From the human T2T-CHM13v2.0 reference genome, Homo sapiens: a stretch of 64,000 nt of DNA. Shown here piece after piece: positions 1 through 57,559 of this stretch; positions within the stretch are counted from its first letter, which is position 1; each line of letters opens with the position of its first letter. Under the pieces are notes generated by a model. The model saw nothing but the letters and a program-made list of their open reading frames with translations, did no database searches and was not told the origin of the DNA. Where the stretch lies: contig CP068257.2 in assembly GCA_009914755.4 (NCBI GenBank), positions 1,984,001 to 2,048,000 on the forward strand. The letters run 5' to 3'. The translations under genes and the position numbers were made by a program.

Positions 1-51
1 GAGCTGAATTGAATGGAATAGAATAGAATGGAAAGGAATGGTGAAATGAAA

Positions 52-118
52 TGTGTGCTGAGATTGTGCCACTAGACTCCGGGCTGGGTGACAGAGTGAG
101 ATACTCTCAAAAGAAAGG
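52..118 (+). mobile_element. Alu 3'-end fragment (right-arm terminus plus degenerated poly-A), copy 1 of 10.
   Basis: gtgctgagattgtgccactagactccgggctgggtgacagagtgagatactctcaaaagaaagg matches the Alu consensus 3' end GTGAGCCGAGATCGCGCCACTGCACTCCAGCCTGGGCGACAGAGCGAGACTCCGTCTCAAAAA. The CpG sites appear as TpG or CpA. Confidence 0.8.
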
Positions 119-584
119 AATGGAATGGAATGCAGTGTAATGGAATGGAATGGAATGGAATGGAATGGAATGGAATGGAATGGAATAGAATGGAATGAAA
201 TGGAAAGGAATGGAATGGAGTGAACTGGAGAGGAGTGGATTGGAGAGAAGTGGGGTGGAGTGGAATGGAGGGGAATAGAATGGGATGGAATGGAATGGAA
301 TGAAGTGGAGTGGAGTGGGGTGGAGGGAAGTGCAGTGGAATGGAGCGGAATGGATTGGGATGGAATGGAATGCAGTGGAGTGGAGTGTAGTTGAGTGGAG
401 AGGAGTGGAATGTAGTGGAATGGAATCGGATGTAATGGAATGTAGAGGAGTGGAGTGGAGTGGAGTTGAACGGAGTGGAATGGAAGGGAAAGGAATGGAA
501 TGGAATGGATGTAAAGGAAAGGAATGGAATGCAATTTAATGTAATGGAATAGAATGCAATGAAATGGAAAGTTGACATGTAATA

Positions 585-645
585 TGAGCTGAGATAGTGC
601 CACTGCACTCAAGCCTGGGTGACGCAGTGATATACAGTGGAAAGG
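585..645 (+). mobile_element. Alu 3'-end fragment, copy 2.
   Basis: tgagctgagatagtgccactgcactcaagcctgggtgacgcagtgatatacagtggaaagg. Confidence 0.75.
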
Positions 646-825
646 AAGCTATGGAATGCAATGGAGTGAAATGTTATGGAATTGAATGGAATTGAGAGGA
701 GGGGAATGGAGTTTAGTGCAATGGAGTCAACTGGAATGGGATGGAGTGGAATGGAGTGGAGTGGAGTGAAATAGAGAGGAATGGAATGGGATGGAATGGA
801 ATGGAATGGAATGGTGAAAAGAAAT

Positions 826-893
826 GTGAGCTGAGATTGTGCCACTGCACTCCAGCCTCTGTGACAGAGTGAGATCCTTTGGAAAGAAAGGAA
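826..893 (+). mobile_element. Alu 3'-end fragment, copy 3.
   Basis: tgtgagctgagattgtgccactgcactccagcctctgtgacagagtgagatcctttggaaagaaagg. Confidence 0.8.
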
Positions 894-1176
894 AGGAATG
901 GTATGGAATGGAATGGAATGGAATGGAGTGGAGTGGAGAGGAGTGGAGTGGAGAGGAGTGGAGTGGAATGGATTGGAGTGGAATGGAATGGAGTGGAGTG
1001 GAATGGAATGGAGTGGAATGGAATGGAATGGAGTGGAGTGGAATGGAATGGAATGGAGTGGAATGGAATGGAATGGAGTGGAATGGAATGTAATGGAGTG
1101 GGATGGAATGCAATGGAAATGAATGCAATGGAATGAAACGGAATGGAACGGAATGGAATGGAATGGTGAAAAGAAA

Positions 1177-1252
1177 TGTGTGCTGAGATTGTGCCACTGC
1201 GCTACACCCTGTGTGAGAGAGGGAGATCTTGTCAAAAGAAAGTAGTGGAATG
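1177..1252 (+). mobile_element. Alu 3'-end fragment, copy 4 (more diverged).
   Basis: tgtgtgctgagattgtgccactgcgctacaccctgtgtgagagagggagatcttgtcaaaagaaag. Confidence 0.7.
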
Positions 1253-1365
1253 GAAGGGATTGGAATTGCACGGAATGGAATAGGTTGGAGTGGAGTGGAG
1301 TGGAATTCAGTGGATAGGAGTGGAGTGCAGTGGAATGGAAAGGAATGGAATGGTGAAATGAAAAA

Positions 1366-1430
1366 TGGCTTGAGATTGTGCCACTGCACTCCTGCCTGAG
1401 TGACAGAGTGAGATCCTCTCAAATGAAAGG
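1366..1430 (+). mobile_element. Alu 3'-end fragment, copy 5.
   Basis: tggcttgagattgtgccactgcactcctgcctgagtgacagagtgagatcctctcaaatgaaagg. Confidence 0.8.
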
Positions 1431-1645
1431 AATGCAATCTAATGGAGTGGAATGCAATAGAATGGAGTGGAGTAGAGTGGATTGGAGAGGAAAGGAGTGC
1501 AATGGAATGGGATGGAAAGGAAAGGAGTGGAGTGGAATGGAATGGAATGGAGTGGAGTGAAGTGGAATGGATTGCAATGGAGTGGAGTGGAGTAGAGCAG
1601 AATGGAACTGAATGGAACGGAATTGAATGGAATGGTGAAATTAAA

Positions 1646-1712
1646 TGTCAGCTGAGATTGTGCCACTGCTCTCCGGGCTGGGTGATGGAGTGAGATACTC
1701 TCGAAAGAAAGG
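1646..1712 (+). mobile_element. Alu 3'-end fragment, copy 6.
   Basis: tgtcagctgagattgtgccactgctctccgggctgggtgatggagtgagatactctcgaaagaaagg. Confidence 0.8.
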
Positions 1713-2133
1713 AATGGAATGGAATGCAATGCAGTGGAATGGAATGGAATGGAATGGAATGGAGTGGACTGGAGTGGATTGGAGTGGAGTGAAGTGGAGT
1801 GGAGTGGAATGGAGAGGAATGCAATGGGATGGAATGGAATGGAATGAAGTGGAGTGGAGTGGGGAGGAGCGGAGTCCAGTGGAATGGAGCAGAATGGAAT
1901 TGGATGGAGTGGAATGGAGTGGTGTAGAGAGAAGGGGAGTGGAGAGGAGTGGAATGGAGTGGAATGGAATTGGATGTGACGGAATGCAGTGGAGTGGAGT
2001 GGTGTGGAATGGGATGGAATGTTGTGGAGTGGAGTGGAGTGGAACGGAATGGAATGGAATAGAATGGAATACAATGGAATTCAATGGAATGCAATGGAAT
2101 AGAATGCAATGAAATGGAATGTTGTCATGCAAT

Positions 2134-2199
2134 GTGAGCAGAGACTGTGCCACTGCTCTCCAGCCTGAGTGACACAGTGATATAGTGTCGAAAGAAAGG
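2134..2199 (+). mobile_element. Alu 3'-end fragment, copy 7.
   Basis: tgtgagcagagactgtgccactgctctccagcctgagtgacacagtgatatagtgtcgaaagaaagg. Confidence 0.75.
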
Positions 2200-2715
2200 A
2201 ATGGAATGCAATGGAGTGAAATGGAATGGAATGAAAAGGAGAGCAGTGAAGTGGAGTGGAGTGGAGCGGAGTGGAGTGGAGTGGACTGCAATGGAATGGA
2301 ATGGAGTGGAGTGGAATGGAATGGTAAGGAATGGAATGGAAAGGAATTGAGTGGAGTGGAATGGAAGGGAGAGGAATTGAGTGGAGTGGAGTGGAATGCA
2401 ATCGAATAGAATGTAATGGAAGGGAATGGAATGGAGTGGAAAGGAATGGAATGGAGTGGAATGGAATGAAATGGAATGGAGTGGAGTGGAATGGAGTGAA
2501 GTGGAGTGGAATGGAGTGGACAGGAGTGGAGTGGAATGGAATGGAGTGGAATGAAATGGAATGGAGTGGAATGGAGTGGAAAAGAGTGGAATGGAATGTG
2601 GTGGAATGAAATGGAGTGGAGTGGACTGGAGTAGATTGAAATGGAATGCAGAGGAATGGAATGAAGTGGAATGGAATGGAATGGAATGGAATGGAATGAA
2701 ATGGTGAAAAGGAAT

Positions 2716-2780
2716 GAGTGCTGAGATTGTGCCACGTGCTACAGCCTGTGTGACACAGGGAGATCCTGTCGAAAGAAAGG
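2716..2780 (+). mobile_element. Alu 3'-end fragment, copy 8.
   Basis: tgagtgctgagattgtgccacgtgctacagcctgtgtgacacagggagatcctgtcgaaagaaagg. Confidence 0.7.
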
Positions 2781-2901
2781 AGTGGAATGGAAGAGATTGG
2801 AATGGAATGGAGTGGAATGGATTGGAGTGGAGTGGAGTAGAATTCAGTGGAGTGGAGTGCAGTGGAATAGAATGGAATGGAATGAAATGCTGAAGTAAAA
2901 C

Positions 2902-2966
2902 GTGAGATGAGATTGTGCCACTGCACACAGCCTTGGTGACAGAGTGAGATCCTGTCAAAAGAAAGG
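2902..2966 (+). mobile_element. Alu 3'-end fragment, copy 9.
   Basis: gtgagatgagattgtgccactgcacacagccttggtgacagagtgagatcctgtcaaaagaaagg. Confidence 0.75.
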
Positions 2967-3182
2967 AATGGAAAGGAAACGAGTGGAATGGAATGGAATG
3001 GAGTGGAATGGAATGGAGTGGGGTGGATTGGAGTGGAGTGGAAAGGAGTGGAATGAAATGGGATGGAATGGAAAGGAGTGGAGCGGAATGGACTGGAGTG
3101 GAGTGGAGTGGAATGGATTGGAGTGGAGTGGAGTAGAGTGGAATAGAGTGGAATGGAATGCAATGGAATGGTGAAATGAAAT

Positions 3183-3248
3183 GTGAGCTGAGATTCTGCC
3201 ACTGCACTGCAGGCTGGGTGATAGAGTGAGATACTTTCGAAAGAAAGG
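3183..3248 (+). mobile_element. Alu 3'-end fragment, copy 10. It is the last copy; no more occur in the remaining 60 kb.
   Basis: tgtgagctgagattctgccactgcactgcaggctgggtgatagagtgagatactttcgaaagaaagg. Confidence 0.8.
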
Positions 3249-6166
3249 AATAGAACAGAATGCAGTGGAATGGAATGGAATGGAATGGAGTGGACTGAAG
3301 TGGAGAGGAGTGGGGTGAATTAGAGTTGACTGGAATGGAGACAAATGGAATGAGATGGAACGGAATGCAATGGAATGGAATGAAGTGGAGATGAGTTGTG
3401 TGGAGAAGATTGTCGTTGAATGGAGCAGAATGGAAGGGGATGGAGTGGAATGGAGTGCTGTGGAGTGCAGTGCAGAGGAGAGGAGTGCAATGGCATGGAA
3501 TGGAGTTGGATACAATGGAATTTAGTGTAGTGGAGCAGAGTAAAGTAGAACGGAGTGGTATGGAATGGAGTGGAATAGAATAGAATGGATTCGAATGGAA
3601 TGGACGGGAATGGAATGGAATGGAATGGACTCGAATGGAATGGAATCGAATGAAATGGAATCTAATGAAAGGTAATCAAATGGAATGGAATCGAATTGAA
3701 TGGAACGGAATGGAACGGTCTCGAATGCAACAGAATCAAATGGAATAGAATCGAGTGGAATGGAATGGACTCGAATGGATAGGAATGGAAACGAAAGGAA
3801 TGGAAACGGAATGGATTCGAAAGGAATGGACTGGAATGGAATGCAATCGAATGGAATGGAATCGAACAGAATGGAATCAAATGGAATGGAATGGATTCGA
3901 ATGGACTGGACAGGAATGGAATGGTCCTGAAAGGAAAGGAATGGAATGGAAAAGAAGGGAATGGAATGGAGTGGAATGGAATGGAATAGAATTTAATGGA
4001 ATGGAACGGACTCGAATGAAATGGCCTGGAGTGGAATGGAATCGAATGGAATAGAATTGACTGAAATGGAATCGAAAGGGATGGAATAGAATTTAATGGA
4101 ATAGAATGGATTGGAATGGAATGGAATCTAATCAAATCAAATGGAATGGAATAGAATGGAAGGGAAGGGAATAGAAAGGAATAGAATGGAATAGATTCAA
4201 ATGGAATGGAATGGAATAGAATGGAATGGATTCAAATGGAATGGAATAGAAATGAATGTAACACAATGGAACGGAATGGAAACTAATAGCATGGAATGGA
4301 ACGGAATGGAATGGAATGGAATAGATTTGAAAGGAATGGAATGGACTGGACTCAAAAGGAATGGACTGGAATGGCATGGAATTGAACGGTATGGAATGGA
4401 ATGGAATGGAATTGAATGGAATGGATTTGAAAGGAATGGAATGGAAAGGAAAGGAATGGAACAGACTGGAATGGAATGGACTGGAATGAATTGGAATTGA
4501 ATGGAATGGAATGGAAATGAGTGGAATGCAATGGAATGGACTGGAATGGAATGGAATGGAATGGACTGTAATGGAATGGAGTATAATAGAACGGCCCCAA
4601 ATGGAATCTAATCGAATGGAATGGAATGGAATGGAATCAAATGGAATGGAAAGGAATAGAATGGAATCGAATGGAATGGACTCGAATGAAATGTACTGGA
4701 ATGGAATGGACTCGAATGGAATGGACTGGAATGGAATGTATTCAAAGAGAATGGAATTGAATGGAATGGACACGAATGCAATAAAATGGAATGGAATGGA
4801 CACGAATAGAATGGATTCTAATAGAATGGACTGGAATGGAATGGATTAAATTGGATGGACTCGAATGGAATGTAATCGAATGGAATGGAATCGAACGGGA
4901 CAGAATCGAATGGAATAGAATCGAATGGAAAGGAATCGAATGGAATGGACTGGAAAGAAATGGAATTGATAAGAATGGACTCGAATGGAATGGACTCAAA
5001 AGGAAAGGAATTGAATGAAATGGAATTGAATGGAATGGAATCGAATTTAATGGAATGGAATCGAATGGAATGCAATCGAATGGAATGCAATGGAATGGAA
5101 TGGAATCGACTGGAATAGAATCTACTAGAATGGAATGGAATGGAATGGAATGGATTCGATTGGAGTGGACAGGAATGGAATGGACTAGAATGGAATGAAC
5201 TCAAAAAGAAAGAAATGGAATGGAATGGAATAGAACAGAATGTAATGGGATCGAATGGAATGGAATCTAATGAAATGCAATCGAACGGAATGCAATAGAA
5301 TGGAAAGGAATGGAATGGAATAGAAACGAATGGAATGGAATTGAGTGAAATGGATTCTAATGTAATAGAATTGAATTGATTGAAATGCAATGGAATGGAA
5401 AGGACTCGAATGTAGTAGACTGGAATGGAATGGACTCGAATGAAATGGACTGGAAGGGAATGAGCTCGATTGGAATGCAAACGAATGGAATAGAATCGAA
5501 TGTAATGAAATCAAATGGAATGAATTGAATGGAATGAAACCGAATGGAATGCACTGGAATGGAATGGACTCGAATTGAAAGGAATCGAATATAATGGAAT
5601 GGAACGGAATGAAAAGTAACGGAATGGAATGGAATCAAATGGAATGGACTCGAATGCAATGCACTGGAATTGAATGGAATCGAGTGGAATGGACTTGAAT
5701 GGAATGGCGTCTAATGCAATGGAATGGACTGCAAAAGAATCGAGTTGAATGGAATTATTGGAATGGAGTTGAATGGAATGGATTGGAAAGGAATTGAATC
5801 AAATGGAATGGAATCGATTGGAATGGACTAGAATGGAATGGACACTAAAGGAATGGAATGAAATGGAATGGTCTCGAATGGAATGGAATGGAATGGAAAG
5901 GGCTCGAATGGAATGGAACCCAAAGGACTGGCATCGAATGCAATGGAATCTAATGGAATGGAATCCAATGTAATAGACCGGATTGGAATGAACTCAGATG
6001 CAATTGACTGCAAAGGAAAGGTCTCGAATGGAATGTAACGGAATGCGACGTACTCAAATGGAATGGACTCGAATGGAAAGGAATGGAATGGAATGGAATC
6101 AAATGGAATCGGTTGGAATAGCATGGATTTGAACCAAATGGAATGAAATGGAATGGTCTTGAAAGT

Positions 6167-6376
6167 AATGGGCAGGAATGGAATGGAACCGAATGGAATG
6201 GAATGAATTGGAAAGGAATGGATTGGACTCGAATTTAATGGGCAGGAATGGAATGGAACAGAATGGAATGGAATGAATTGGAATGGAATGGATTGGACTC
6301 GAATTTAATGGGCAGGAATGGAATGGAACAGAATGGAATGGAATGAATTGGAATGGAATGGATTGGACACGAATGT
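6167..6376 (+). repeat. Local tandem triplication of a 70-bp block (14 pentamers).
   Basis: aatgggcaggaatggaatggaacagaatggaatggaatgaattggaatggaatggattggactcgaattt is repeated three times nearly identically (starts 6167, 6237, 6307). Confidence 0.85.
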
Positions 6377-8519
6377 AATTGACTGCAATGGAATGGACTC
6401 GAATGGAATGGAATCAAAAGAAATGGAATAGAATGGAATGGAATGGAACTGAATGTATCAGACTGGAATGGAATGGACTCGAATGTTATGGACTTGAATG
6501 GAATGGACTGGAATGGAATGGAATGGAATCAAATGGAATGGAATCGAATGGAATGGACTGGAATGCAATGGAAATGAATGGACTGGACTGGAATGGAATG
6601 TTCTAGAATAAAATGGCATCGAATGAAATGTAACGTACTGGAACGGAATGTATTCCAATGAAATGGCCTGGAAAGGAATTAACTCGAACGTAACTGACTT
6701 GAATGGAATGCAATTGAATGGCAAGGAATAGAATGTAATGGAATGGAATGGATTGGAATGAAATGGAATGGAATGGAATGGAAAGGAATGGAATGGAATG
6801 GAAGAGAATAGAATGGAATGGAATCGAATGGAGTGGACTATAATGGAATGGATTGGAATGGAATGGATTCAAATGGAATGGAATCGAATGGAGCGGATTT
6901 GAATGGAATGGACTTGAGTGGCATAGATTCAAATGGAATGGACTGGAATGGAATGCCTTTGAATGGAATGGAATAGAATGGGATGGAATCGAATGGAATG
7001 GAATCGAATTGAGTGGACTCAAATGGAATGGACTCGAATGTAATGGACTCAAAGGGAATGGACTCGAATGGAATGGAATCTAAATGAATGGAATGGAATC
7101 AAAAGGAATGGAATCGCAAGGAATGGAATGGCATGGAATGGAATGGATTGGAATGGAATCGAGTGGAATGGATTGGAATGAAATGTACTGGAATGGAATG
7201 GACTGAAAGGGAACATTCTCGAATGGAATGGAATAGAAAGGAATGGACTCGAATGGAATTGAAACAACTGGAATGGAATCTAGTGGAATGGAATGGAATG
7301 GAATGGAGTGGAATGGACAGGAATGGAATGGATTCGAATAGAATGAACATGAATGGAATGGATTCAAATGGGATGGACTCGAATGGAATGCATTTGAATG
7401 GAATGGAATTGAATGGAATGGAATCAAATGGAATGGACTGGAATTGAATGGATTCATACGGAGTGGACTCGAATGGAATGGACTCGAAATGAAAGGAATC
7501 TATTGTAATGGAACAGAACGGTATGGAAACGACTTGAATGGAAAGGATTCAAATGGAATGCAATGGAATGGAATGAAATGGAATGGAATCAAAAGGAATG
7601 GAATCGAGTGGAAGTCTTGAATGGAATGGAATCTAATGGAATGGAATGGACTCCAATGGAATGCACTGGAATAGAATGGACTCGAAAGGAAAGGACTCGA
7701 ATAGAAAGGACAAAAAGGAAAGGAATCAAAAGGAATGGAATCGATGGCAATAGAATCGAATGGAATGGAATAGAAAGGAATGCAAACGAATGGAACGGAA
7801 TGGTATGGAATGGAATGGAATGGAATCAAATGGAAAGTAATTGAGTGGAATGTAGATGAAAGGATAAGAATCTAATGGAATGGAATCTAATGCAATGGAA
7901 TTGGACAGAATGGAATGGAATGGAATAGAATGGAATGAAATGGAATGGAATCAAATGTAATGGACCGGAATTGAGTGGACCCGAATGGAATGGATTGGAA
8001 TGGAATGAACTCAAATGGAATGCAATAGAATGGAATGGAATCGAATGTAATGGAATCAAATGGAATGGAATTGAATAGAATGGAATCGAATGGAATAGAC
8101 GAATAGAATCGACTCGAATGGATTGGAATCAAATATAATAGAATGTAATTTAATGGAAAGGAAAGGAATGGAACCAAATGGAATGAACTCGAATGGAATG
8201 GACTGGAATTGAATGGACTCGAATGGAATGGACTTGAAAGGAATGGAATCTAATGGAATGGAAACAAATTGAATGGAATCGATTGGAATGGACTGGAAAG
8301 GAATGGACTGGAAAGGAATGGAATGGAATGGAATCCAAAGGAATGGAATGGAATGTAACAGAATTGAATGTAACAGAATAGAATGGAATGAAATCAAATG
8401 AAAAGGGATCAAATGGAATGGAATCATATGGAGTGGAATCAAATTAAATGGAATGGAATCGAATGGAATGGAATCAAATGGAATGGAATCAAATTGAAAG
8501 GAGTCGAATGGCACGGAAT

Positions 8520-8800
8520 GGAATCGAATGGATTGCAGTGAAGTGGAGTGGAGTGGAATGGACTGGGATGGAATGGAATTGAATGTAGAGGACGGGAGTG
8601 GAGTTGAATGGACTCAAATGGAATGGAAGGGGAAGGAATGGAATTGAACGGAATGGAGTATAATGGAGTGGAGTGGAATGTAATGCAATGGAATGGAATG
8701 GAATGGAATAGAATGGAATGGAGTTAATGGATTGCAAAGGAGTGGAATGGAAGGAAGTGGAGATGGATGGAATGGAGTATAGTGGAGTGGAGTGGAGTGG
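8520..8800 (+). repeat. Short island of GGAGTGG-type (A/C-like) satellite inside domain B.
   Basis: gcagtgaagtggagtggagtggaatggactgggatgg ... ggagtatagtggagtggagtggagtggaatgg, flanked on both sides by the CGAATGG-type sequence. Confidence 0.55.
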
Positions 8801-11800
8801 AATGGAATGGAATGGACTCCAAAGGACTGGAGTCAAATGAAATGTAATTGAAAGCAATGGAATGGAACGGAATGGAACGGACTCCAAAGGACTGGAGTCG
8901 AACGGAATGGAATTGAATGCAAAGGAATGGAATGGAATGGAATGGAATGGAACGGAATGCAATTAAATGAAATGGAAAGGAACGCAATGGAATGGAATGG
9001 AGTGGAATGCAATGGAATCAAATTGAATGGAATGGAATCGAACAGAATGGAATGGAATGGAATGAAATGCAATAGAAAGGACTGGAATAGAATGGAATGG
9101 AATGGAATCGAATCGAATTTAATGGAATCAATTAGAATGGGACCGAATAGAGTGGAATGGAATGGTGTGGAATGGACTAGAATGGAATGGAATGGAAAGG
9201 AAAGGGCTCGAATGGAATGGACCCGAATGGAATGGAATCAAATGCAATGGAATGCAAAGGAACAGAATAGAATGGAATGGAAGGTAATGGACTCTAATGT
9301 AATGGAATGCAATGCTATGGACTCGAATGGAATGGATTCAAATGGAATGGACTCGAAAGGAATGGACTCGAATGGAATGGAATCTAATGGAAAGGAATTG
9401 AATGAAATGGACTGGAAGGGATCGGTTTCGCACGGAATGGAATGGAATAGAATGGAATGGAATGGAATGGAATCGAATGGAATGGACTCGAATGGAATGG
9501 ACTCCAATGGAATGGACTTGAAAGGAATGCAATCGAATGGAATGGAATCGAATGGAATGGATTCGAAGGGAATGAAATGCAATCAAATGGAATGGAATCA
9601 AACGGAGTGGAATGGAATGGAATGGAATGGACTCGAATGTAAAGGACTGGAACGGAAAAGACTGGAATCAAATGGACTCACATGGAATGGAGTCAAATGG
9701 AATGCAATCAAATAGAATAGAACAAAATGGAATGGAATGGAATCGAATGGAATGGAATATATTCGAATATAAAGGACTGGAATGGAATGTACTTGAATGA
9801 AATGGACTTGAATGAAAAGGATTTGTATGGAATGCACTCAAATGGAATGGAATTAAACAAAATGGACTCGAATGGAATGCAGTCGATTAGAATGGAATCG
9901 AATGGGGTGGAATCTAATGGAATGGACTGCAATGGAATGGACTCCAAAGAATGGACTCGAATGGAATAGACTCGAATGTAACGTAATGTAATGAAATCGT
10001 AAAAAATGGGATGGACTCGATTGTAATGGATTGTAATGCAATAGACTAGCATGGAATGGACTCCAATGGAATGGAACAAAATGGAATGGAAAGGATTGGA
10101 ATGTACTCGAATTTAAATGACTAGAAAGGAATGGACTTGAATGGAATTGACTCGAATGGAATACAGTCGAATGGAATGGAATGCAATGGAAAGGAAAGGA
10201 GTGGAATGGAATGGACAGTAATCGAATGGACTTGAAAGGAAGGGACTCGAATGGAATGTACTCGAATGGAATGCAATCGAATGGAATGGAATCGAATGGA
10301 ATGGAATCAAAAGGAATGGACTGGAATGAAATAGAATGGAATGGAATGGACTCGATTGGAATGGACTGGAATGGAATAGACTCAAAAGGAATGGACTCAA
10401 ATGGAATGCAATCGACTGCAATGGAACTGAATGGAGTGGAATCGAACGGAATGGTATTGAATGGAATGGACTCTAATGGAATGCAATAGAATCGAAAGGA
10501 CACTAATGGAATGAACTGGAATGGACCGGTCTCGAATGGAATGGAAAGGAATGGAATGGACTGGAACGGAATCTAATGGAATGGACTTGAATAGAATGGA
10601 CTCGAATTGAAAGGATTCGAATGGAATGGACGCGAATGGTCTGGAATTGAATCGAATCGAATGTAATGCTCTCTAATGGATTGGTCACGAATGGAATGGA
10701 ATCAAATGGAACGGAATCAAATGAAATGGACTCGAATGAAATGTAATCGAATGGAATGGAATCAAATAGAATGGCATAGAATGGAATGGACTTAAATTTA
10801 ATGGATTGGAATGGAACAGTCTGGAATGGAATGGAATTGAATGGAATGGAATGGAGTATAACGGAATGAAATGGAATGGAATCGAATAGAATGGAAAGGA
10901 ATGGAATGGAATGGAATCGAATGCAATGTAAAGGCATGGAATGGCACAGAACGGAACGGAATTGAAAGGAATAGAATCTAATGGAATGGAATGGAATTGA
11001 TTCCAATGGAATGGACTGGAATGGAATAGAATGGAAGGGAATTTATTCACATGGAATGGGCTGGAATGGAATTGAGTGGAATGGAATGGACTACAAGGGA
11101 AAGAACATGAATGGAATGGAATTCAATAGAATGGAATCGAATGGAATGGAAGGGTATGGAATGAAATATAATGCAGTCGAATGGAATGGAATGGATTGGA
11201 AAGGAATGGAATGGAATGGAATAGAATCGAATGGAATGGACTGTAACAGATTCGACTGGAAAGGAATGGAGTCCTATGGAACGGATTCAAATGGAATGGA
11301 TTCGCATCGAATGGATACGAGTGGTCTGGAATGGAATGGACTCGAATGCAATGGTCTCCAATAGAATGGATTCGAATGGAATGCAATTGAATGGAAAGGA
11401 ATAAAATTTAATGGAATCGAATGGAATGGAATCGAATGGAATGGAATCTAGTGGAATGGAATAGAATCGATACGACCCGAATGGAATGAACTGGAATAGA
11501 ATGATCTCCAATGGAATGGAATCGGGTGGAATGGAATCGATTGGAATGGAAAGAAAATGAAAAGAATGGAAAGCAATAGAATGAAAAGGAATGGAATGAA
11601 ATGGAGTCAATCGAATTGACTAGAATGGAATGGAATGTACATGAAAGTAATGAACTGGAATGGAATGGAGTTGATTCGAATTGTGTCTAACGGAATGGAA
11701 TCGAAAGGAATGGAATCCAATGGAATGCAATCACAAGGATTGGAAAGGAATGGAATGGACTCGAATGGAAGGGAATAAAATGGAATGGAAAGGAGTGGAC

Positions 11801-13900
11801 TGGAATGGCATGGACTCGAAAGGAATGGACTGGAATGGAACCGTTCCGAATGAAATGGACCCGAATGGATTGGAACTGAAAGGTATGGTATTGAATGGAA
11901 TGGAATCGAATGGAATGGAATGGACTGGAATGTAATAGAATGGACTGGAATGAAATGGACTGAATGGAATAGACTAGAATGGAATGGAATCAAATGGAAT
12001 GGGCTCGAAGGAATGTATTCGAATGGAATGGAATCAAATGGAATGGAATAGAATGGAAGGGACTTGAATTGAATGGATTGTTACGGAACGGTATTGAATG
12101 GAAGGGAATGGAATGGATTGGAATGGAATGCAATGGACTGGAATGGAATAGACTCAAAAGGAATGGAATCGAATTGAATGGAATTGAACAGAAGGGAATC
12201 AAATGGAATGGAAGCGAATGGAATGGAACGGAATGGAATGGAATTGAATGGAAAATAAGGGAATATAATGGAATGGACTCTAATGGAATGGACTCAAAGG
12301 GAAGAGAATAGAATGGAATAGAATGGAATGGAATGGAATGGACACGAATGCAATTGATTGGAGTGGTGTGGAATGGAATGAAAGGGAATGGACTCTAATG
12401 GAATGGAACGCAATGAAATGGAATGGAAATCAATGGAAAGGAATCGAATGGAAAGGAATGGAATATAATGGAATCAAATGGAATGGAAGGGAATGGAATG
12501 GATTCGAATGGAACGTAATGGCATGAAATGGAAGGGAATTGAATGGAATGTATTGGAATGGAGTGGAATGGAATGGCATGGAATGGAATCAAAAAAATGG
12601 AATTGATTATCATAAAATCTAATGGAATGGAATAGAATATATTTGAATGGAATGGACTGGAATGGAATGGAATCAAAAAATTGGAATGGAGTGGAATGGA
12701 ATGTAGTGTAATGGAATGGAATGGAATGGACTTGAAAGGAATCAAATGTAATGGACTAGAATTGCGTGGAATTGTATGGAATGGAATGGAGTAAAATGGA
12801 GTGAACTGGAATGGAATGGAATAAAATGGAATGGAATCTAATGGAACGGAATCAATTGGAATGGCCTCGAATTGAATGGATCCGAAAGAATTTTCTCGAA
12901 TGGAATGGGAAGACTCGAATGTAATGAAACGGAATGGAATTGAATGGAATTGTATGCAATCGACTCGAACATAATCGACTGAATTGGAATGGAGTCAAAT
13001 GGAATAGAAGCGACTGCAATGGAATCAAATGGAATTTAATTGAACTGAAACAAATTCAATGGAATGGAATGGAATGGAAAGGAATTGAATGGATTGGTAT
13101 GGAGTGGAATGTAACGGACTCGAAAGGAATGTACACGAATGGAATGGAATTGAATGGATTGGAATCGAGTGGAATGATATCAAATTGAATTGAATCAAAT
13201 GGAATGGAATGGAATGGAATGGAATGTGACGGAATGGACTCAAATGGAATGGACTCAAAGGGAATGGAATAGAACAGAATGGAATGGAAAGGAATGGAAA
13301 CGATTTGAATGGAATGGGATGGATTCAAATGGAACGGAATGGAATGAAATGGAATGGAAGTGAATGGAATGTCATGGCATGGAATGGAATGGAATGTACT
13401 CGAAAGGAATGGAATGAAACGGACTGCAATGGAATGGAAAGTAGTGGAATCGAATGTAATGGAATGGCACGAGATGGAATCAAATGCAATGGAATCGAAT
13501 ATAATGTAATGTAAAGGAATGGAATGGAATGGAAACGAAAGGAATGGCATGGCACAGAAAGGAATGCAATGGATTCGAATTGAACCAAAAGGAATGCAAT
13601 GGAATGGAACTGAAAGGAATGGAATGGAATGGAATGGAATGGAATGGAATGGCCTTGAATGCAATGGAAAGGAATGGAAAAGAATGTACTAGAATGGAAT
13701 GGAACGGAATGGAATGGAATGGAATGGAATGGAATGGAATAGAATTGTATGGAATGCAATTGCATGGAATGGAATTGAACACAATGGAATGGAGTGGAAT
13801 GGAATGGAATGCACTTGCATGCAATGGAATCAAAAGGAATGGTATCGAATGGAATGGAATCGAATTCAAAAAATTGGAATGGAATGGCCTCGAAAGGAAT

Positions 13901-14120
13901 GGAATTGAAAGGAATGGAACGAAATGCAATCAAATGGAATCAAATGGAATTAAATGGACTGGAATGGAATAGACTGGAAAGTAATGGACTGGAATGGAAT
14001 GGAATCGAATGGAATTGAAAGTAATGGAACGAAATGCAATCAAATGGAATCAAATGGAATTAAATGGACTGGAATGGAATAGACTGGAAAGTAATGGACT
14101 GGAATGGAATGGAATCGAAT
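13901..14120 (+). repeat. Local tandem duplication of a 110-bp block.
   Basis: ggaattgaaagtaatggaacgaaatgcaatcaaatggaatcaaatggaattaaatggactggaatggaatagactggaaagtaatggactggaatggaatggaatcgaatgg is present twice (gaaatgcaat at 13921 and 14031). ORFs 13794-14018 and 13994-14179 encode near-identical peptides as a consequence. Confidence 0.85.
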
Positions 14121-17100
14121 GGAATGGAAACAAAAGGAATGGAATCAAATGGAATGGAATCCAATGGAATGGACTCTAATGGAATGGATTGGAATGGAAC
14201 GGTCTTGAAAGGAATGGAATTGAATGGAATGAAATGGAATAGTATTAAAGGCAATGGAATGAAATGGAATCGAATGGAAAGGAAAGGAATGGAGTGGGAT
14301 GGAATGGAAACGAATTGAATGGAATGGAATGACAAGGAATGGAATCGAATGAAATAGAATCTAATGGAATGGAATGGAATTGATTCAAATGGAATGTACT
14401 CGAATGGAATGGACTCAAATGGAGTGGAGTGTAATGGAATGGAAAGGACTCAAATATTATGGGCTGGAATGCAATGGACTCGAATGGAACGGACTCGAAT
14501 GGAATAAAATGGATTGGAATGGAATGGAAAGGAATGGACTTGAATGTAATGGGCTGGAATGCAGTTGATTGTAATGGAATGTATTTGAATGGAATGGCTT
14601 TCAATGTAATGTAATATAACCGAATGGAATGAAATGGAATGGAATGGGAAGGAATAGAATGGATTGGAAAGGACTCGAATGTAGTGGGCTCCATTGGAAT
14701 GGAATCCAAAGGAATGAAATAGAATGGAATGGAATCCAATGGAATGGAATAGAATGGATTGGAATCCAATGGAATGGAATCAAATGGAATGGAGTGGAAT
14801 GCGATGGACTCGAATGAAATGGACTGGAATGTAATTGTCTCTAATGGAAAGCAATGGAATGGAATGGAATCAAATCGAATGGAATGTAATCGATTGGAAT
14901 AGAATGGAAGTGAATGGAATGGACTCCCATGGAATGTACTCGAACAGAAAGCAATCAAATGGAATCGAATCAAATAAAATGCAATGGAATGGAATGGAAT
15001 GAAATGGAACGGAAAGGAACTGATTGAAAACAAACTGAATGGAATAGAATGGAATCCAAAGGATTCGAATGGAATGGAATGGAATGAAATGGAATTGAAT
15101 GGAATGGAAAGGAATGGAATCGATTCGAATGGAATGGAATGGCATGGAATGGAATCGAATAAAATGGAATGAAATTGAATGGAATGGGATGGAATGAAGT
15201 GGACTGGAAAGGATTCGAAAAGAATGGACTGGAATTGAGTGGAACTGTATGGAATGGAACGGACTCGAATGGAATGGAATCGAATGAAATGGAGTCGAAT
15301 TGAATGTGTCCAACTCGAACGCTGTCCAGTGTAATGTAATGGGATGGAAGGGAATGGAATTTAATGCAATGGAAAGACTAGAATGGAATAAAATGGAATG
15401 GAATGGAATGGAATAGAATGTAATGGACTGCAATGGAATGGACTCGAATGGAATGCACTAGAGTACAAAGGAATTGAATGCAATTTAATCGAATGGAATG
15501 AAATCCAATGGAATGGAATGGAATGCAATGCATTGGAACAGACTGGAATGTAATGTACTCGAATGGAATTCACACGAATGGAATGAAATTGAATGCAATC
15601 GATGCGAATGGAATGGAATCAAATCGAATGGAATGGAATGGAATGGAATGGAATGGAATAGATTATAATGGAAAAGAATAGAATGGAATGGAATGGAGTT
15701 GAATGGACTCGAATCGAATGGACTCAAAGGGAATGGAATGGAACATAATACAATGGAAAGGAATGGAATTGACTCGAATGGAAAAGAATGAAGTGGAATG
15801 GAATGGAATTGATCGCAATGGATTCCAATGGAATGGAAAGGAAAGAAATGGAATGGAATTGAATGGAATGCCCGGAAATCAATTGGAATGGAATGGCATG
15901 TAATGGAATCTAATGGAATCGAATTAAATGGAAAAGAATCGAATGAAATGGAAAGGAATTGAATAGAATGGATTTGAATGGAATGGAATGGAATTTAATA
16001 TAATGGAATGGACTGGAAATGAATGGAAGCGAATGGAATGGAATCGAATGGAATGGACTCGAATGGAATGGAATGGAATGGAATCGTCTCAAGTGGAATG
16101 GAATGGAATAGAATGGAATGGAATCGAATGAAACTGAATGGAATTTAACGGAATTGAATGGAATGGAATAGAATCGAATAGAAGGGAACCAAATGGAATG
16201 GTGTGTAATTGAATGAAGTAGAATGGAATGGACTCCAATGGAATGAACTCGAATGGATTGGAATGAAATGGAATGGAATGTTATAGAACGGAATCGAATG
16301 GAGTCAAATGGAATGGAATGGATTGGAATGGAATGGAATGGAATAGAATCAAATGGAATGGAATCACATGGAATGGACTGGAACGCAATGAACGGGAATG
16401 GAATTAACCCAAATGGAATAAACTCGAATGGAATGGATTGCAATGGAATGGAATCTGATGGAATGGAATAGAATGGAATGGACATGAATGGACTGAACTG
16501 GAATGGAACGGTCTCGAATGGAATGGAATCGAATGGAATGATATCAAATGGAATTGAATGGAACGGAAAAGATTGGAGTGGTATGGAATGAAATTGACAC
16601 AACTGAATTGACTGGAATGGAATGGAATGTACTCGAATGAAATGGACTGAATGGAATGGCCTCGAAAGGAATGGAGTCGAATGGAAAGGAATCGAAAGGA
16701 ATGGAATCCAATGGAATAGAATTACAAGGAATGGAAATGAATGGAATGGAATCAAATGGATGGGAATTGAATGGAATGGAAAGGGCTGGACTGGAATGGA
16801 ATGGACTCGAAAGGAATAGACTGGAATGGAACCCTCTGGAATAAAGTGGAGACGAATGGATTGGAATTCAAAGGAATGGATTCGAATGGAATGGAATCGA
16901 ATGGAATGGAACGGAATTGAAGGGAATAGAATGGACTTGAATGTAATTGACTGAATGGAACGGACTCAACAGGAATGGAATCGAATGGAATGGAATCAAA
17001 AGGAATGGACTCGAAAGGAAGGTAATCAAATGGAATGGAATCAAATGGAATACAATCAAACGGAAAGAACTACGATTGAATGGATCGGAAAGGAATGGTA

Positions 17101-19094
17101 TTGAATGGAATGGAAGTGAATGGAAAGGAATGGAGTGGAATGGAAGGTAATGGAATAGAATCGAATGGAATGGAAAAGAATGGAATGGAATGGAATGGAA
17201 TGGAATGGACTGCAATGGAATGGAATGTACTCGAATCTAGTGAACTGGAATAGAATGGATTAGAATGGAATGGAGTCGAACGGAACGGAATCAAATGGAA
17301 TGGATTCTAATGGATTTGAATCCAAAGAAACAAAAAAAAATCGAAAGCACTCTAATGAAAGGAAATTGAATGGAATGGAATATATTGGACTTGAGTGGAA
17401 TGGACTCGAAAGGAATGGACTTGACTGGAATCATCTTGATTAAAGTGGACCCAAATTGATTGGAATAGACAGGAATGGAATTGAAAGAAATAGAATCAAA
17501 TGGAGTTGACTCGAATGGAATGTAATCAAATGATAAGGAATCAGCTGGAATGGAATAGAATGGAATGGGCTTCAATTGAATGGATTTGAATGTAATTGTC
17601 TCGAATGGAATTGAATGGAATGGATAGGAGTGGAATAAAATGGAATGGAATGGAATGGAATGAAATGGAATGGAAAGGAATGGAATGGAATGGAATCGAA
17701 TCGAAAGGAATGGCCTGGAATGTAATTGCATGGAATGAAATCGAACTGAATAGAATCTAATGAAACGGAATGCAATTGATTCGAATGGATTGGACTGGAA
17801 AGGAATGGAATCGAACAAAATGAGATGGAATGGAATGGTATGGAATGGAATGGATTCGAATGGAAAGGAATGAAATTGAATGGAATAGAATGGAATGCAA
17901 TGGACTGGAAAGGATTCAAATGGAAAGGACTGGAATTCAGTGGAATCGTATGGAATGGAATAGAATGCAATGGAATGGAATGGAATGGACTCGAATGGAA
18001 TGCAGTCGAATAGAATGGAATCTAATGGAATGGAATCGAATGGAATGGACTCTAATTGAATGGATCAGAATGGAACTGTCTCGAATGCAAAGGAAAGGAA
18101 TGAAAAAGACTCGAATGGAAAGAAATGGAATGGAAAGGAAAGAAATGGAATGGAATAGAAATTTACTGATTCGAATGGAATGGACGGGAATGGAATGGAA
18201 TCACATGGAATGGAATGGAATGGAATGGAAGGGAATGGACTCAAATGTAATGGACTTGAATGAAAAGGACTCGAATGGAATGGAGCGAAATGAAATGGAA
18301 TGGAATGGAATGGACTCGAATGTAATGGACTGGAATGGCATGGACTCGAAGGGTATTGACTTGAATGGAATGCAATGGAATAGTATGGAATGGAATGGAA
18401 TCAAATGTAATGGACTGGAATGGAATGTACCCGAATGGAATGGACTCGAATGGAATGGATTCCACTGGAATGGAGTCGAATGGAATGCAATTGAAAGGAA
18501 AGGAATCGAATGGAATGGAATCAAAAGGAATGCAATCATGCACTAGAATGAATTGGACTTCTTTGGATTGGACTCGAATGGATAACAATTGAATGGAATG
18601 GAATTGAAAGGAATGGAATCAAATGGAATGGAATCGAATCGAATGCATTGGAATGGAAGGGACTCAAATGGAATGGACTGGAATGGAATGGTCTTGAATG
18701 GAATGGAATCGAATGGAATGCATTACAATCGAAGGGACTCAAATGGAATGGACAGGAATGGAATGGTCTTGAATGGAATGGACTCTAATGGAATGGAATG
18801 GAAAGAATGGCATGGAATAGAATGGAATGGAATGGAATCGAATGTAATGGACTGGAATGGAATGGAATAGAATGGAATGGAATGGAATGGAAAGTAATGG
18901 ACTGGAATGGAATGGACTCGAATGAAATTGACTCGAATGGAATGGACTCCATTGGAATGGACTCCAATGGAATGCAATCGAATGGAATGCCAGCGAATGG
19001 AAGGGACTGGAATGGAATGGACTCGAATGGATTTGAATGGAATGGAATGGAATGTAATACAATGGAATGGAGTAGAGGGGAATGGAATGGAATG

Positions 19095-22209: not shown

Positions 22210-22950
22210 TGGAATGGAGCTGTGAGTGGAATGCAATCGAAAGGAATGGAATTGAATGGAATGGAATCGAGTAAAGTGGAATGGAATGTAAGCAAAAGGA
22301 ATGGACTAGAATGGAATGGTCTCGAATGGAATGGAATCGAATTGAATGGACTTGAAAGAACGGATTCGAATGGAATTAAATCAAATGGAATCGAATGCTC
22401 TGGAATGGAAAAGAATGGACTCGAATTTAATGGAATGAAATGGAATTCACTCAAATGGAATGGAATCGAAAGTAAGGATATCTAGTGGAATAGATTCTAA
22501 TGGAATGGAATCGAATTGAATGGACACGAATGGCATGAACTTGAATGGACATTTCTCGAATGGAATGGAATGGAATGGTGTGGAATGGAATGGACTCGAA
22601 TGGAATGGTCTCCAATGGAATGGAATCGAATGGAACGCAATCGAAAGGAATGGAATCGAATGGAATTGAATCGAATAAAGGGGAATAGAATGGACACGAA
22701 AGGATTATACTAGAATGGAACCATCTATAATGGAATGAAATTGAATAGAATGGAATTGAATGGATTGGATTCGAATAAAATGAAAAGGAATCGAATCGAA
22801 TGGACTGTAATGGAAAAGAATCGACTCGAATGTAATGGACTAGAATGAAATGCCTTCAAATGGAATAGAAACTAATGGAATGGAAGCTAAAGGAATGGAA
22901 TTGAATCAAATGGAAACGAAAGGAACGAATTGGAATGGAAAGGTCTCCAA
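22210..22950 (+). repeat. Island of domain-B-type (CGAATGG/GACTCGAATGG) satellite, about 740 bp, embedded in domain C.
   Basis: gcaatcgaaaggaatggaattgaatgg ... ggactcgaatggaatggtctccaatggaatggaatcgaatgg ... ggaatcgaatcgaatggactgtaatgg. The flanks are GGAGTGG-type. Confidence 0.65.
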
Positions 22951-23030
22951 TGGAATGGAATGGAATACAATGGAATGGAATGGAATGGAAAGGAATGGAA
23001 TGGAGTGGAATGGAGTGGAATGGAATGGAA

Positions 23031-56100: not shown

Positions 56101-57559
56101 AGTCGAGTGAAGTGGAATGGAATGGAGTGTAATGGAGTGGTATAGAATGGAATGGAATGGAGTGGATTGGAGAGAAAGGAGTGGAGTGGAGTGGAAGGGA
56201 GTGGAGTGGAAGGGATTGGAATGGAATGCAATGCAGTGGAATAGAATGGAATCAATAGGAGTGGAATGGAATGCAGGCGAGTGGAATGGAATGGGCTGGA
56301 ATGGAACGTAGAGAAATGGATTGGGGTGGAAGGGAATGAAATGGAGTGGAATGGAGTGCAGTGGAATGGTGTGAAGTGGAATGGAATTAAACGGAATGGA
56401 ATGGAGCGGAGTGCACTGAAGAGGAATGGAGTGGAGTGCAATGGAATGGAATGGACTGAAATGGAATTGTTTGGAATGGAAAGGAATGTGGTGGAATGTA
56501 ACGGAATGGAGAGGAATGGATTGGAGTGGAATGGAATGGAGTGGAAAGGAATGGAAAGTAATGGAGTTTACTGGAATGCAATGGAATGAAATGGAATGGA
56601 ATGGAATGGAATGCAATTGAATGGAGTGGAATGCAATGGAATGGAATCGAGTGGATTGGATTGGAATGGAATGGAATAGAATGGAACAGATTGGAACGGA
56701 ATGGAGTGGAACGGAATGGATTGTAATGGAATGGAATGGAATAGAATCGAATCGAATGGAATGGAAGGGAAGGAAAAGGAATAGAATGGAATGGATTAGA
56801 ATGGAAGGGAGTGGAGTGGAATGGAATGGAATCGAGTGTAGTGGAATGGAATGGAGTGGAATGGATTGGAATGGAATGGAATGGAATGGAATAGAATGGA
56901 ATGGAATGGAGGGGATTGTAGTGGAGGGCTGTGGATAGGAATCGAGGGGAGTGGAATGGATTGGAATGGAAGGGAATGGAATGGAATCGAATGGAGTGGA
57001 GGGGATTGGACTGGAGGGCTGTGGATTGGAATGGAGTGGAATCGAATGGAATGGAATGGAGTGGAGTGGAATGAGGTAGAGTGAAATGAAATGGAAGGGA
57101 ATGGAGTGGAGTGGGGTGGAATGGAATTGAGTGTAATGGTGGGGAGAGGATTGGACAGGAGTAGAGTGCAGTGGAATGGAGAGTAGCGGAGTGGAGTGGA
57201 ATGGAATTAAATGGAATGGAATGGAGTCGAATGGAATGTAGTGGAATGGAGAGGAGTGCAATTGAATGGATTGGAATGGAATGGGGTGGAATGAAATGGA
57301 GTGGAATGGAATGGAGTGTATAGGACAGGAATGCAATAAAGTGGAATGGATTGGAGAGGAGTGGAACCGAATAGAATGGAGTGGAAATGAATGAAATGGA
57401 AAGGAATGGAGTGGATTGGAATGGAGTGACGTGGAATGGATTGCAATGGACTGGATTGGAATGGACTGGAGTGGAATGGAGTAGATTGAAATGAAATGTA
57501 ATGGAATGGAATGCAATGGAATGGAATAGAAAGGAGTGGAATGGAGTGTAATGGAAAGG

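What the first reader, a model, noticed from the sequence alone, without database searches (positions are those of the whole stretch)
1..3580. Composite satellite unit: one Alu 3' tail captured and co-amplified with (GGAAT)n
Ten Alu right-arm-terminus fragments of about 65 bp sit in the first 3.3 kb and nowhere else in the remaining 60 kb. All ten are in the same orientation and truncated at the same 5' position, with the same flanking GGAATGGTGAAA(T/A)GAAATGTG motif. They share the same CpG>TpG substitutions relative to the Alu consensus (GATCGCGCC>GATTGTGCC, GGGCGACAGAGCGAG>GGGTGACAGAGTGAG), and the poly-A has decayed to GAAAGAAAGG running straight into the pentamer. Shared truncation and shared mutations mean a single ancient insertion (or fragment capture) that was then amplified as part of the satellite repeat, not ten independent retrotranspositions. 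Spacing is irregular (about 185 to 575 bp), and the copies are only roughly 80 to 90% identical to one another, so the amplification is old and the pentameric filler has expanded and contracted since. This gives a chromosome/array-specific marker and a molecular clock for this HSat3 subfamily.
Basis: partly seen in the sequence, partly recalled or inferred. Interest (0 to 1): 0.55.

Follow-up and report, generated by a model that had tools for sequence, protein, structure and literature searches.

The report
Alu tail amplified inside pentamer satellite
One decayed 3' end of an Alu element became trapped in a (GGAAT)n human-satellite-3-type array and was copied along with it; this is real and tidy, but it is a kind of feature already reported for these satellites.

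Summary
Ten blocks of about 80 bp lie in window 35-3248, all on the G-rich strand, and none in the other 60 kb. Each block is a degenerate pentamer motif, then the last ~56 nt of an Alu, then a short A-rich tail.

All ten break from Alu homology at the same base. All carry the same CpG>TpG changes. The same junction occurs in at least 120 public metagenome contigs (621 blocks). There too the breakpoint is fixed, and the former CpG sites are mostly TG and almost never CA or CG. So one already-decayed Alu end was amplified as part of the satellite. Ten separate insertions are excluded.

- Spacing is not irregular. There is a ~1.54-1.59 kb higher-order period with five block classes (a-b-c-d-e, then a-b-d-e, then a). 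Spacings follow 5n+2, so the filler changes in pentamer steps.
- The array probably continues left of the window. It ends at ~3590, at a junction with another satellite type.
- The unit is not shown to be specific to this array.
- Using it as a clock is doubtful.

The T2T centromere and Y-chromosome papers already report Alu fragments inside HSat3 repeat units. Interest is low.

The parts
35..118 (+). Block b1 (class a): flank motif 35-55, Alu-derived part from 53, tail AAAAGAAAGG 109-118
566..649 (+). Block b2 (class b): diverged flank (5 mismatches), Alu-derived part from 584, tail remnant GAAAGGAAGC 640-649
808..891 (+). Block b3 (class c): exact flank motif; it scores highest of the ten against Alu (37); tail 882-891. 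There is no counterpart in the second repeat copy.
1160..1243 (+). Block b4 (class d): exact flank motif, tail AAAAGAAAGT 1234-1243
1347..1430 (+). Block b5 (class e): tail AAATGAAAGG 1421-1430. A 12-nt perfect inverted repeat, 1322-1333 / 1381-1392, joins a nearby satellite variant to the Alu core.
1629..1712 (+). Block b6 (class a, second copy)
2116..2199 (+). Block b7 (class b, second copy)
2698..2780 (+). Block b8 (class d, second copy): 1-nt deletion; holds the perfect palindrome CCTGTGT-G-ACACAGG
2884..2966 (+). Block b9 (class e, second copy): 1-nt deletion
3165..3248 (+). Block b10 (class a, third copy): exact flank motif
35..1628 (+). Higher-order repeat copy 1 (1594 bp; block order a-b-c-d-e; filler is GGAAT/GGAGT pentamers)
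   Evidence: Self-alignments at offsets 1538, 1544 and 1594; spacings
1629..3164 (+). Higher-order repeat copy 2 (1536 bp; block order a-b-d-e; block c absent)
   Evidence: The same arrangement is seen in contig L034.
3165..3590 (+). Higher-order repeat copy 3, cut short. It follows copy 2 to about 3657 by alignment, but composition switches at about 3590.
3580..3610 (.). Junction with a different, CpG-bearing satellite type (TCGAATGGAATGGA). GGAGT falls from 0.15-0.20 to 0 per pentamer, and CpG rises from 1-2% to 4-6%.
   Evidence: The junction is also crossed by contigs L044, L047 and L101.

Best explanation
Window 1-3590 is the right-hand end of an array of (GGAAT)n-derived, HSat3-type satellite. 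Its repeat unit carries a passenger: the last ~56 nt of one Alu right arm plus a short remnant of its A-tail. The Alu sense strand is on the G-rich strand.

Sequence of events (inferred):
1. An Alu entered a pentamer array once.
2. Only its 3' end was kept. Either it inserted 5'-truncated, or the rest was lost by deletion or unequal exchange.
3. Its CpGs decayed to TpG while it was still single-copy or nearly so.
4. A short unit made of degenerate pentamers (GGTGAAATGAAAT), the Alu end, the A-rich tail and pentamer filler was then multiplied by the unequal-exchange or replication processes that expand satellites. The commonest spacing is 187 bp.
5. The filler grew and shrank in 5-bp steps.
6. 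A string of five diverged units (a-e) was amplified as a ~1.54-1.59 kb higher-order (nested) repeat, of which the window holds 2.3 copies.
7. Relatives of the unit spread to many other places in the same genome.

Shown: the anatomy, the single origin, the higher-order period, and the wide occurrence. Inferred: the order of events and the amplification mechanism. No function is indicated; the Alu piece is most likely a neutral hitch-hiker.
For: Alu identity: score 42 against a maximum of 15 for shuffles and for the rest of the window.

Single origin: identical breakpoint, flank, strand and tail in 10/10 window blocks. In 345 kb of related contigs, 432 of 474 Alu matches start at Alu position 220-229 and none starts further 5'. 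At the six former CpG sites TG is seen in 378-567 of 621 blocks, CA in 0-3 and CG in 0-7. Only 2 of 44 non-CpG positions differ from AluS/Y in the family consensus.

Higher-order repeat: the best self-alignments are 886-2064 against 2424-3600 (offset 1538, 80.5%) and 163-814 against 1707-2364 (offset 1544, 82.4%). Same-class block pairs average 86% identity against 80% for other pairs, Mann-Whitney p=0.0004. A 1.52-1.55 kb period is also seen in contigs L034, L047, L080 and L028.

Pentamer-step filler: 310 of 528 spacings are congruent to 2 mod 5, chi-square p about 1e-115. TRF finds a 186-187 bp period at 1051-1540 and at 2612-3070.

Independent existence: at least 120 metagenome contigs hold the exact junction. 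Some of their blocks are 99-100% identical to window blocks and lie in the same order.

Against: Rfam gave no SRP/Alu hit on so short a piece.

The Alu subfamily cannot be fixed. The head fits S/Y (GAGCCGAGAT with C>T). The tail fits J/Sz-like CCCTGTC better than S/Y CTCCGTC.

No target-site duplication can be recognised in a 5-bp repeat, so insertion and fragment capture cannot be told apart.

The timing 'decay first, amplification later' could in principle be mimicked by later homogenisation.

The contigs are short-read metagenome assemblies of unknown host and may be chimeric. Long alignments to the window reach only 91-96%.

Block c is missing from copy 2, so the higher-order repeat is imperfect. 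It is only ~80% conserved between copies, not far above the 75-80% background between any two pentamer stretches.
Confidence: 0.9

Rival explanations
1. Amplification came first and decay later. A young, CpG-intact Alu end was amplified, and the CpG>TpG states arose afterwards and were spread through the family by gene conversion or unequal exchange (concerted evolution).
For: Satellites do homogenise. A few blocks still show CG at these sites (0-7 of 621 per site), although these could equally be back-mutation or error. Block classes show local similarity.
Against: All six sites are fixed in the same direction. CA is almost never seen (0-3 of 621) in a family whose members otherwise differ by 21.5% pairwise. 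Homogenisation strong enough to fix six sites would not leave that much other variation.
Confidence: 0.06
2. Ten independent Alu insertions into the satellite, each 5'-truncated.
For: Alu elements are abundant, and 5' truncation does occur.
Against: All blocks share the same breakpoint, the same 13-21 nt non-Alu flank, the same strand, the same six C>T changes, the same non-CpG change at position 50 and the same tail remnant. The blocks sit at periodic positions in a higher-order repeat.
Confidence: 0.01
3. The block is not Alu-derived. It would be a native non-pentameric component of the satellite, or a 7SL-derived piece, that resembles Alu by chance.
For: The reference Alu sequence came from memory. 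Rfam found nothing. The core CCACTGCACTCC is the reverse complement of a common satellite variant, GGAGTGCAGTGG.
Against: 53 of 64 positions match Alu, 5 of the 11 mismatches are CpG transitions, and an A-rich tail sits at the expected end. 7SL scores only 27 because of its extra segment. The orientation is opposite to the satellite variant, and the match extends far beyond those 12 nt.
Confidence: 0.02
4. Assembly artefact: a collapsed or mis-joined repeat in the source assembly.
For: Satellite regions are hard to assemble.
Against: The same junction, the same block order (including the copy lacking block c) and the same right-hand junction are found in independent contigs from many samples.
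Confidence: 0.01

Closest known systems
HSat3 arrays carrying Alu fragments on chrY and the acrocentric short arms (Rhie et al., T2T-Y, 10.1101/2022.12.01.518724; Altemose et al., 10.1101/2021.07.12.452052, citing Bandyopadhyay et al. 2001)
   Same: A pentamer-derived satellite with Alu fragments embedded as part of the repeating structure. The papers infer one seeding for the HSat3-associated clade. The fragments are widely dispersed and not array-specific.
   Different: I could not map the window to a chromosome or to one of the 14 HSat3 subfamilies. The papers call the fragments AluY and report no local homogenisation. Here the 56-nt piece has no AluY-diagnostic site, and same-class blocks are modestly more alike than other blocks (86% against 80%).
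HSat1B / DYZ2, a 2.5 kb Y-chromosome satellite with one Alu-derived subunit per repeat (Frommer et al. 1984; described)
   Same: An ancient Alu piece fixed inside a satellite repeat unit and amplified with it.
   Different: DYZ2 pairs its Alu subunit with AT-rich sequence in a highly homogeneous unit (over 98% identity). Here only ~56 nt of Alu sit in GGAAT-type filler, copies are 71-89% alike, and there are five Alu pieces per 1.5 kb higher-order unit.
Nested tandem repeats (NTRs) of HSat2/HSat3, such as the DYZ1 3.6 kb unit and the pTRS-47 1.37 kb unit
   Same: A kilobase-scale period laid over a pentamer repeat. The period here is ~1.54-1.59 kb.
   Different: The period here is marked by TE-derived landmarks. 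Only 2.3 copies are visible, at ~80% identity.
Composite elements in the sense of Hoyt et al. (definition quoted)
   Same: A TE fragment plus simple repeat, repeated in tandem.
   Different: The definition asks for three or more repeated sequence components.

Membership tests
Alu (7SL-derived SINE), 3'-terminal fragment | Sequence homology to the 3' end of the Alu right monomer | tested here: met
   53/64 identity and score 42, against a maximum of 15 for shuffles and for the rest of the window.
Alu (7SL-derived SINE), 3'-terminal fragment | Alu-type and not 7SL-type arrangement (no extra 7SL segment between GATCGCGCC and CCACTGCA) | tested here: met
   7SL aligns only from GCCACTG onward and scores 27, against 42 for Alu.
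Alu (7SL-derived SINE), 3'-terminal fragment | A-rich tail directly 3' of the element | tested here: met
   (A/G)AAAGAAAGG is exact in 7/10 blocks and within 1-2 substitutions in the others. The family consensus reads GAAAGAAAGG.
Alu (7SL-derived SINE), 3'-terminal fragment | Target-site duplications flanking the insertion | not testable with these tools
   The target is a 5-bp tandem repeat, so any duplication cannot be told from the repeat itself.
Alu (7SL-derived SINE), 3'-terminal fragment | Subfamily-diagnostic positions (J, S or Y) | tested here: inconclusive
   The head fits S/Y and the tail fits J/Sz-like sequence. The family consensus matches S/Y at 48/56 and J at 49/56 positions. The Y-diagnostic sites lie 5' of the breakpoint.
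HSat3 (classical satellite III, (GGAAT)n-derived) | Long arrays built from the pentamer GGAAT/CATTC and its variants | tested here: met
   TRF finds period 5 with 1161 copies over 113-5990. The pentamer census gives GGAAT 0.21-0.43 and GGAGT up to 0.25 per pentamer slot.
HSat3 (classical satellite III, (GGAAT)n-derived) | Not HSat2 (absence of HSat2-specific 24-mers) | tested here: met
   The three HSat2 24-mers from Altemose 2014 Table 1 have no match at up to 2 mismatches anywhere in the window.
HSat3 (classical satellite III, (GGAAT)n-derived) | Assignment to one of the 11 HSat3 subfamilies (A1-A6, B1-B5) | tested here: inconclusive
   Only the single most common 24-mer per subfamily was available. 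There were no exact hits in 1-3580, and only scattered 2-mismatch hits to the A2, A4 and B5 markers. The CAACCCGAGT 10-mer is absent.
Higher-order / nested tandem repeat | Units one period apart are more alike than neighbouring units | tested here: met
   The best self-alignments are at offsets 1538 and 1544. Same-class blocks average 86% identity against 80% for other pairs, p=0.0004. Only 2.3 copies are visible.
Composite element (Hoyt et al. definition) | [quoted passage not shown] | tested here: not met
   Only two component types are present (Alu end and pentamers). No other non-pentameric island exists in the window. The definition is quoted.

The most novel reading that the evidence does not exclude
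The Alu tail could serve as an internal, datable landmark showing that this HSat3 family changes by an unusual process.

After amplification the 56 Alu-derived positions, by then free of CpG, diverged 12% from the family consensus and 21.5% pairwise. That is more than expected for a sequence no older than AluS/Y at ordinary neutral rates. Only 26-35% of the changes are transitions, and C<->G and G>T/C>A changes are frequent. All former CpGs also went to TpG on the G-rich strand and none to CpA.

Together this could mean an elevated, transversion-biased or strand-asymmetric mutation or repair regime in this heterochromatin, and not simple neutral drift.
Probability: 0.2. Interest if true: 0.45.

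Novelty: already known. Interest (0 to 1): 0.2.

Why it matters
It matters little as a discovery. Alu fragments built into HSat3 repeat units are already reported in the T2T centromere and Y-chromosome papers, and any RepeatMasker track would show these blocks.

The practical value is modest. The Alu tail interrupts an otherwise featureless pentamer array, which makes the ~1.5 kb higher-order structure, the pentamer-step length changes and the array boundary easy to read. Its single origin gives a clean set of about 600 paralogous sites. The mutation spectrum and turnover of this satellite family could be measured on those sites in complete genomes.

Tried and rejected
- Rfam scan of 1-3700 at a permissive E-value: only two chance miRNA-like hits and no SRP/Alu hit. 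The fragment is too short.
- Scans of bacterial/archaeal genome contigs (two patterns) and of viral contigs for the junction: 0 hits.
- Subfamily typing with the 14 marker 24-mers from Altemose 2014: not decisive.
- Search for a progenitor with a longer Alu portion among 120 related contigs: none. Every match starts at Alu position 220-250. The apparent AluJo 84-122 hits are the same segment aligning to the homologous left-arm region.
- Search for an 'empty' Alu-free relative of the 1.5 kb unit in the 19-64 kb compartment: only generic 75-80% pentamer similarity and no specific counterpart.
- Extension of Alu homology upstream into GGTGAAATGAAAT: rejected, 3-6/17 identity in the window and 0.29 mean in the family. 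That motif reads as degenerate pentamers.
- Single template-switch origin of the class-d palindrome: rejected, because all intermediate states are common.
- Jarmuz et al. 2007 could not be opened and Bandyopadhyay et al. 2001 was not available to read, so I could not check whether a named clone (pR, pE, pK, pW or pTRS series) carries this unit.
- Three of my own scripts had one-base register errors. They were redone, and only the corrected numbers are used.

Full report
**What the window is.** The whole 64 kb is (GGAAT)n-type satellite with the G-rich strand on + (GC skew 0.55-0.91; TRF period 5). It has three compartments:
- 1 to ~3590 is rich in GGAGT and has 0.2-1.0% CpG.
- ~3590 to ~19000 is a CpG-bearing TCGAATGGAATGGA type with almost no GGAGT.
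- ~19000 to 64000 is again rich in GGAGT.

No HSat2 marker 24-mer is present. The single-marker test for HSat3 subfamilies is not decisive.

**Checking the observation.** A fuzzy search for GAGATTGTGCCACTGC gives exactly ten sites, at 60, 591, 833, 1185, 1372, 1654, 2141, 2723, 2909 and 3190. All are on the + strand and none on the - strand. The + strand core GTGCCACTGC is confined to 1-3250. The many short minus-strand hits elsewhere are the satellite's own variant GGAGTGCAGTGG, which happens to be the reverse complement of the Alu core. In a scan for 60-nt stretches that lose the 5-nt periodicity, the only islands below the cut-off (6 of them) fall on Alu-tail blocks. 'Ten copies, one strand, nowhere else' is therefore correct.

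**Is it Alu?** The ten blocks align almost without gaps. Their consensus matches the Alu 3' end at 53 of 64 positions, with a local score of 42. Two thousand shuffles reach at most 15, and so do 861 segments from the other 60 kb. Single blocks score 24-37. 7SL RNA scores only 27, because it has an extra segment that Alu lacks. A Dfam run is still the formal check.

**Breakpoint and shared changes.** Homology begins at GTGAGC in every block, about Alu position 222-225 (blastn start 224-226). The 17 columns upstream are 3-6/17 identical to Alu, which is background. That upstream motif, GGAATGGTGAAA(T/A)GAAATGTG, is exact in four blocks and has 2-5 mismatches in the others. It reads as degenerate pentamers. 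All six Alu CpG sites carry the C>T change in 8-10 of 10 blocks, the first five read TG in 8-10, and none reads CpA. A non-CpG C>T at fragment position 50 is shared by all ten blocks. The tail (A/G)AAAGAAAGG runs straight into GGAAT repeats.

The spacings are 531, 242, 352, 187, 282, then 487, 582, 186, 281. The second series repeats the first, with 242+352 merged into 582. The best self-alignments of 1-3600 are 886-2064 against 2424-3600 (offset 1538, 80.5% over 1179 bp) and 163-814 against 1707-2364 (offset 1544, 82.4%).

The blocks fall into five classes:
- a = b1, b6, b10
- b = b2, b7
- c = b3
- d = b4, b8
- e = b5, b9

Same-class pairs average 86% identity and other pairs 80% (Mann-Whitney p=0.0004). 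The window therefore holds 2.3 copies of a ~1.54-1.59 kb higher-order (nested) repeat with block order a-b-c-d-e, then a-b-d-e, then a. The third copy follows the second to about 3657 by alignment, but composition switches to the CpG-bearing type at about 3590. TRF also reports a 186-187 bp period at 1051-1540 and at 2612-3070.

**Related sequences elsewhere.** The junction pattern GGTGAAAWGAAATGTGNGCTGAGAT is absent from the bacterial/archaeal genome collection and from the viral collection. These are presumably host DNA in host-associated samples.

The contigs total 345 kb. A 3-substitution search finds 597 blocks, about one per 578 bp, and never on both strands of one contig. Apart from one possible inverted block at the edge of contig L103, the Alu sense strand is always the G-rich strand.

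Of 474 blastn matches to Alu, 432 start at position 220-229 and none starts further 5'. Among 621 blocks in register, the six former CpG sites read TG in 378-567, CA in 0-3 and CG in 0-7. The family consensus differs from AluS/Y at only 2 of 44 non-CpG positions. The breakpoint and the CpG decay therefore predate the whole family. There was a single origin, followed by amplification.

Block spacing is 5n+2 in 310 of 528 cases (p about 1e-115), and 187 bp is the commonest single value.

**Relation of the contigs to the window.** L034 aligns to 158-3700 at 91%, L078 and L035 to about 1045-3155 at 95-96%, and L044 continues across the right-hand junction (3701-7783 at 95.8%). Many of their blocks are 99-100% identical to individual window blocks and lie in the same a-b-c-d-e / a-b-d-e order. 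L034 has the same spacing series, including the copy that lacks block c. L034 and L080 carry 6-11 further blocks upstream of the point matching window position 1. The array therefore very probably continues to the left of the window. Other contigs (L024, L037, L005, L073 and others) have different block orders, so several arrangements of the family exist. Short-read assemblies of satellites can be chimeric, so I do not read more into these orders.

**What it is and how it arose.** An Alu entered a pentamer satellite once. Only its last ~56 nt and a short A-rich remnant were kept. Its CpGs decayed. A short unit of degenerate pentamers, Alu end and filler was then multiplied by the exchange or replication processes that expand satellites. 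A five-unit string was later multiplied as a ~1.5 kb unit, and the family spread within the genome. The anatomy and the single origin are shown. The order of events and the mechanism are inferred. Nothing suggests a function for the Alu piece.

Rivals:
- Ten separate insertions is refuted.
- Chance or non-Alu origin is very unlikely.
- Decay after amplification followed by homogenisation is unlikely, given the near absence of CA and CG in a family that is otherwise 21.5% divergent.
- Assembly artefact is contradicted by the independent contigs.

[quoted passage not shown] 2001 for satellite III on the acrocentric chromosomes. [quoted passage not shown] It adds that such fragments on chrY cluster with those on the acrocentric chromosomes, without clustering by chromosome.

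HSat1B/DYZ2 is the classical case of an Alu piece fixed in a satellite unit. Kilobase-scale nested repeats of HSat3 are also known, such as the DYZ1 3.6 kb unit and the pTRS-47 1.37 kb unit. Under the Hoyt et al. definition a composite element needs three or more components. Here there are two, so 'composite' is only a description. This finding is an instance of a known kind.

**Claims not supported.** 'Array-specific marker' is not supported: the unit is widespread, and the literature finds no chromosome clustering.

'Molecular clock' is also doubtful. The window blocks are on average 12.2% from the family consensus and the family mean is 12.3%. Pairwise distance is 21.5%, at sites that no longer hold CpG. 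From my own knowledge of Alu ages (about 40 Myr or less for S/Y) and ordinary neutral rates, that is too much change.

Counting cells and not events inflates shared variants, so this remains an unexplained side observation, not a result. A palindrome created by three transversions in class d arose stepwise and not in one event, because all intermediates are common.

**Verdict.** The core interpretation is supported, with corrections on periodicity, extent, specificity and clock use. The feature is already known in kind. Interest is low.

Noticed in passing
window 3590-19000, and 22200-23000: A second satellite type (TCGAATGGAATGGA, CpG 2.2-3.4%, almost no GGAGT, GC 0.38-0.39) abuts the Alu-bearing array at ~3590 and ends at ~19000. 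A patch of about 0.8 kb of the same type is embedded in the next compartment at ~22200-23000.
   Followed up: partly
window 19000-64000: An Alu-free compartment rich in GGAGT (GC skew 0.82-0.91). It resembles the filler of 1-3590 only at the generic 75-80% level. It has weak long periods of its own: 44681-46564 against 46175-48083 (offset 1494, 80%), 57452-58639 against 61839-63009 (offset 4387, 84%), and 26291-27074 against 27101-27868 (offset 810, 87%).
   Followed up: partly
window 1322-1333 / 1381-1392; also 2151-2161 / 2238-2248: The Alu core CCACTGCACTCC is the exact reverse complement of the common satellite variant GGAGTGCAGTGG. This gives a perfect 12-nt inverted repeat with a 47-nt spacer beside block b5. 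The variant occurs dozens of times elsewhere in the window, so this is probably chance.
   Followed up: partly
window blocks b1-b10; 621 blocks in L001-L120: All former Alu CpGs decayed to TpG on the G-rich strand and essentially never to CpA. As a coincidence this has p of about 1/32 at best, and there are fewer independent sites if the source Alu was Sz/J-like. It could hint at strand-asymmetric deamination in the ancestor.
   Followed up: partly
window 53-3248 (Alu-derived 56 nt of each block); L001-L120: The post-amplification substitutions are transversion-rich (26-35% transitions, with frequent C<->G and G>T/C>A). They amount to 12% divergence from the family consensus at CpG-free sites. 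That is unusual for neutral point mutation, but no control was available, and shared variants are counted more than once.
   Followed up: partly
window 2743-2757 (block b8): Three transversions convert the Alu segment CCTGGGT-G-ACAGAGT (4/7 pairs) into the perfect palindrome CCTGTGT-G-ACACAGG. All intermediate states are common in the family, so it arose stepwise or by recombination and not by one template switch.
   Followed up: yes
L044 3250-7262; L047; L101: Independent contigs cross the same junction between the Alu-bearing array and the CpG-bearing type (95.8% identity to window 3701-7783 in L044). The junction is therefore either part of a larger duplicated segment or the same locus sampled from other individuals.
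   Followed up: partly
window 11591-12184 vs 16583-17191: An isolated ~600 bp repeat pair at offset 4992 (81% identity) inside the CpG-bearing compartment. It may be a trace of a ~5 kb period.
   Followed up: no
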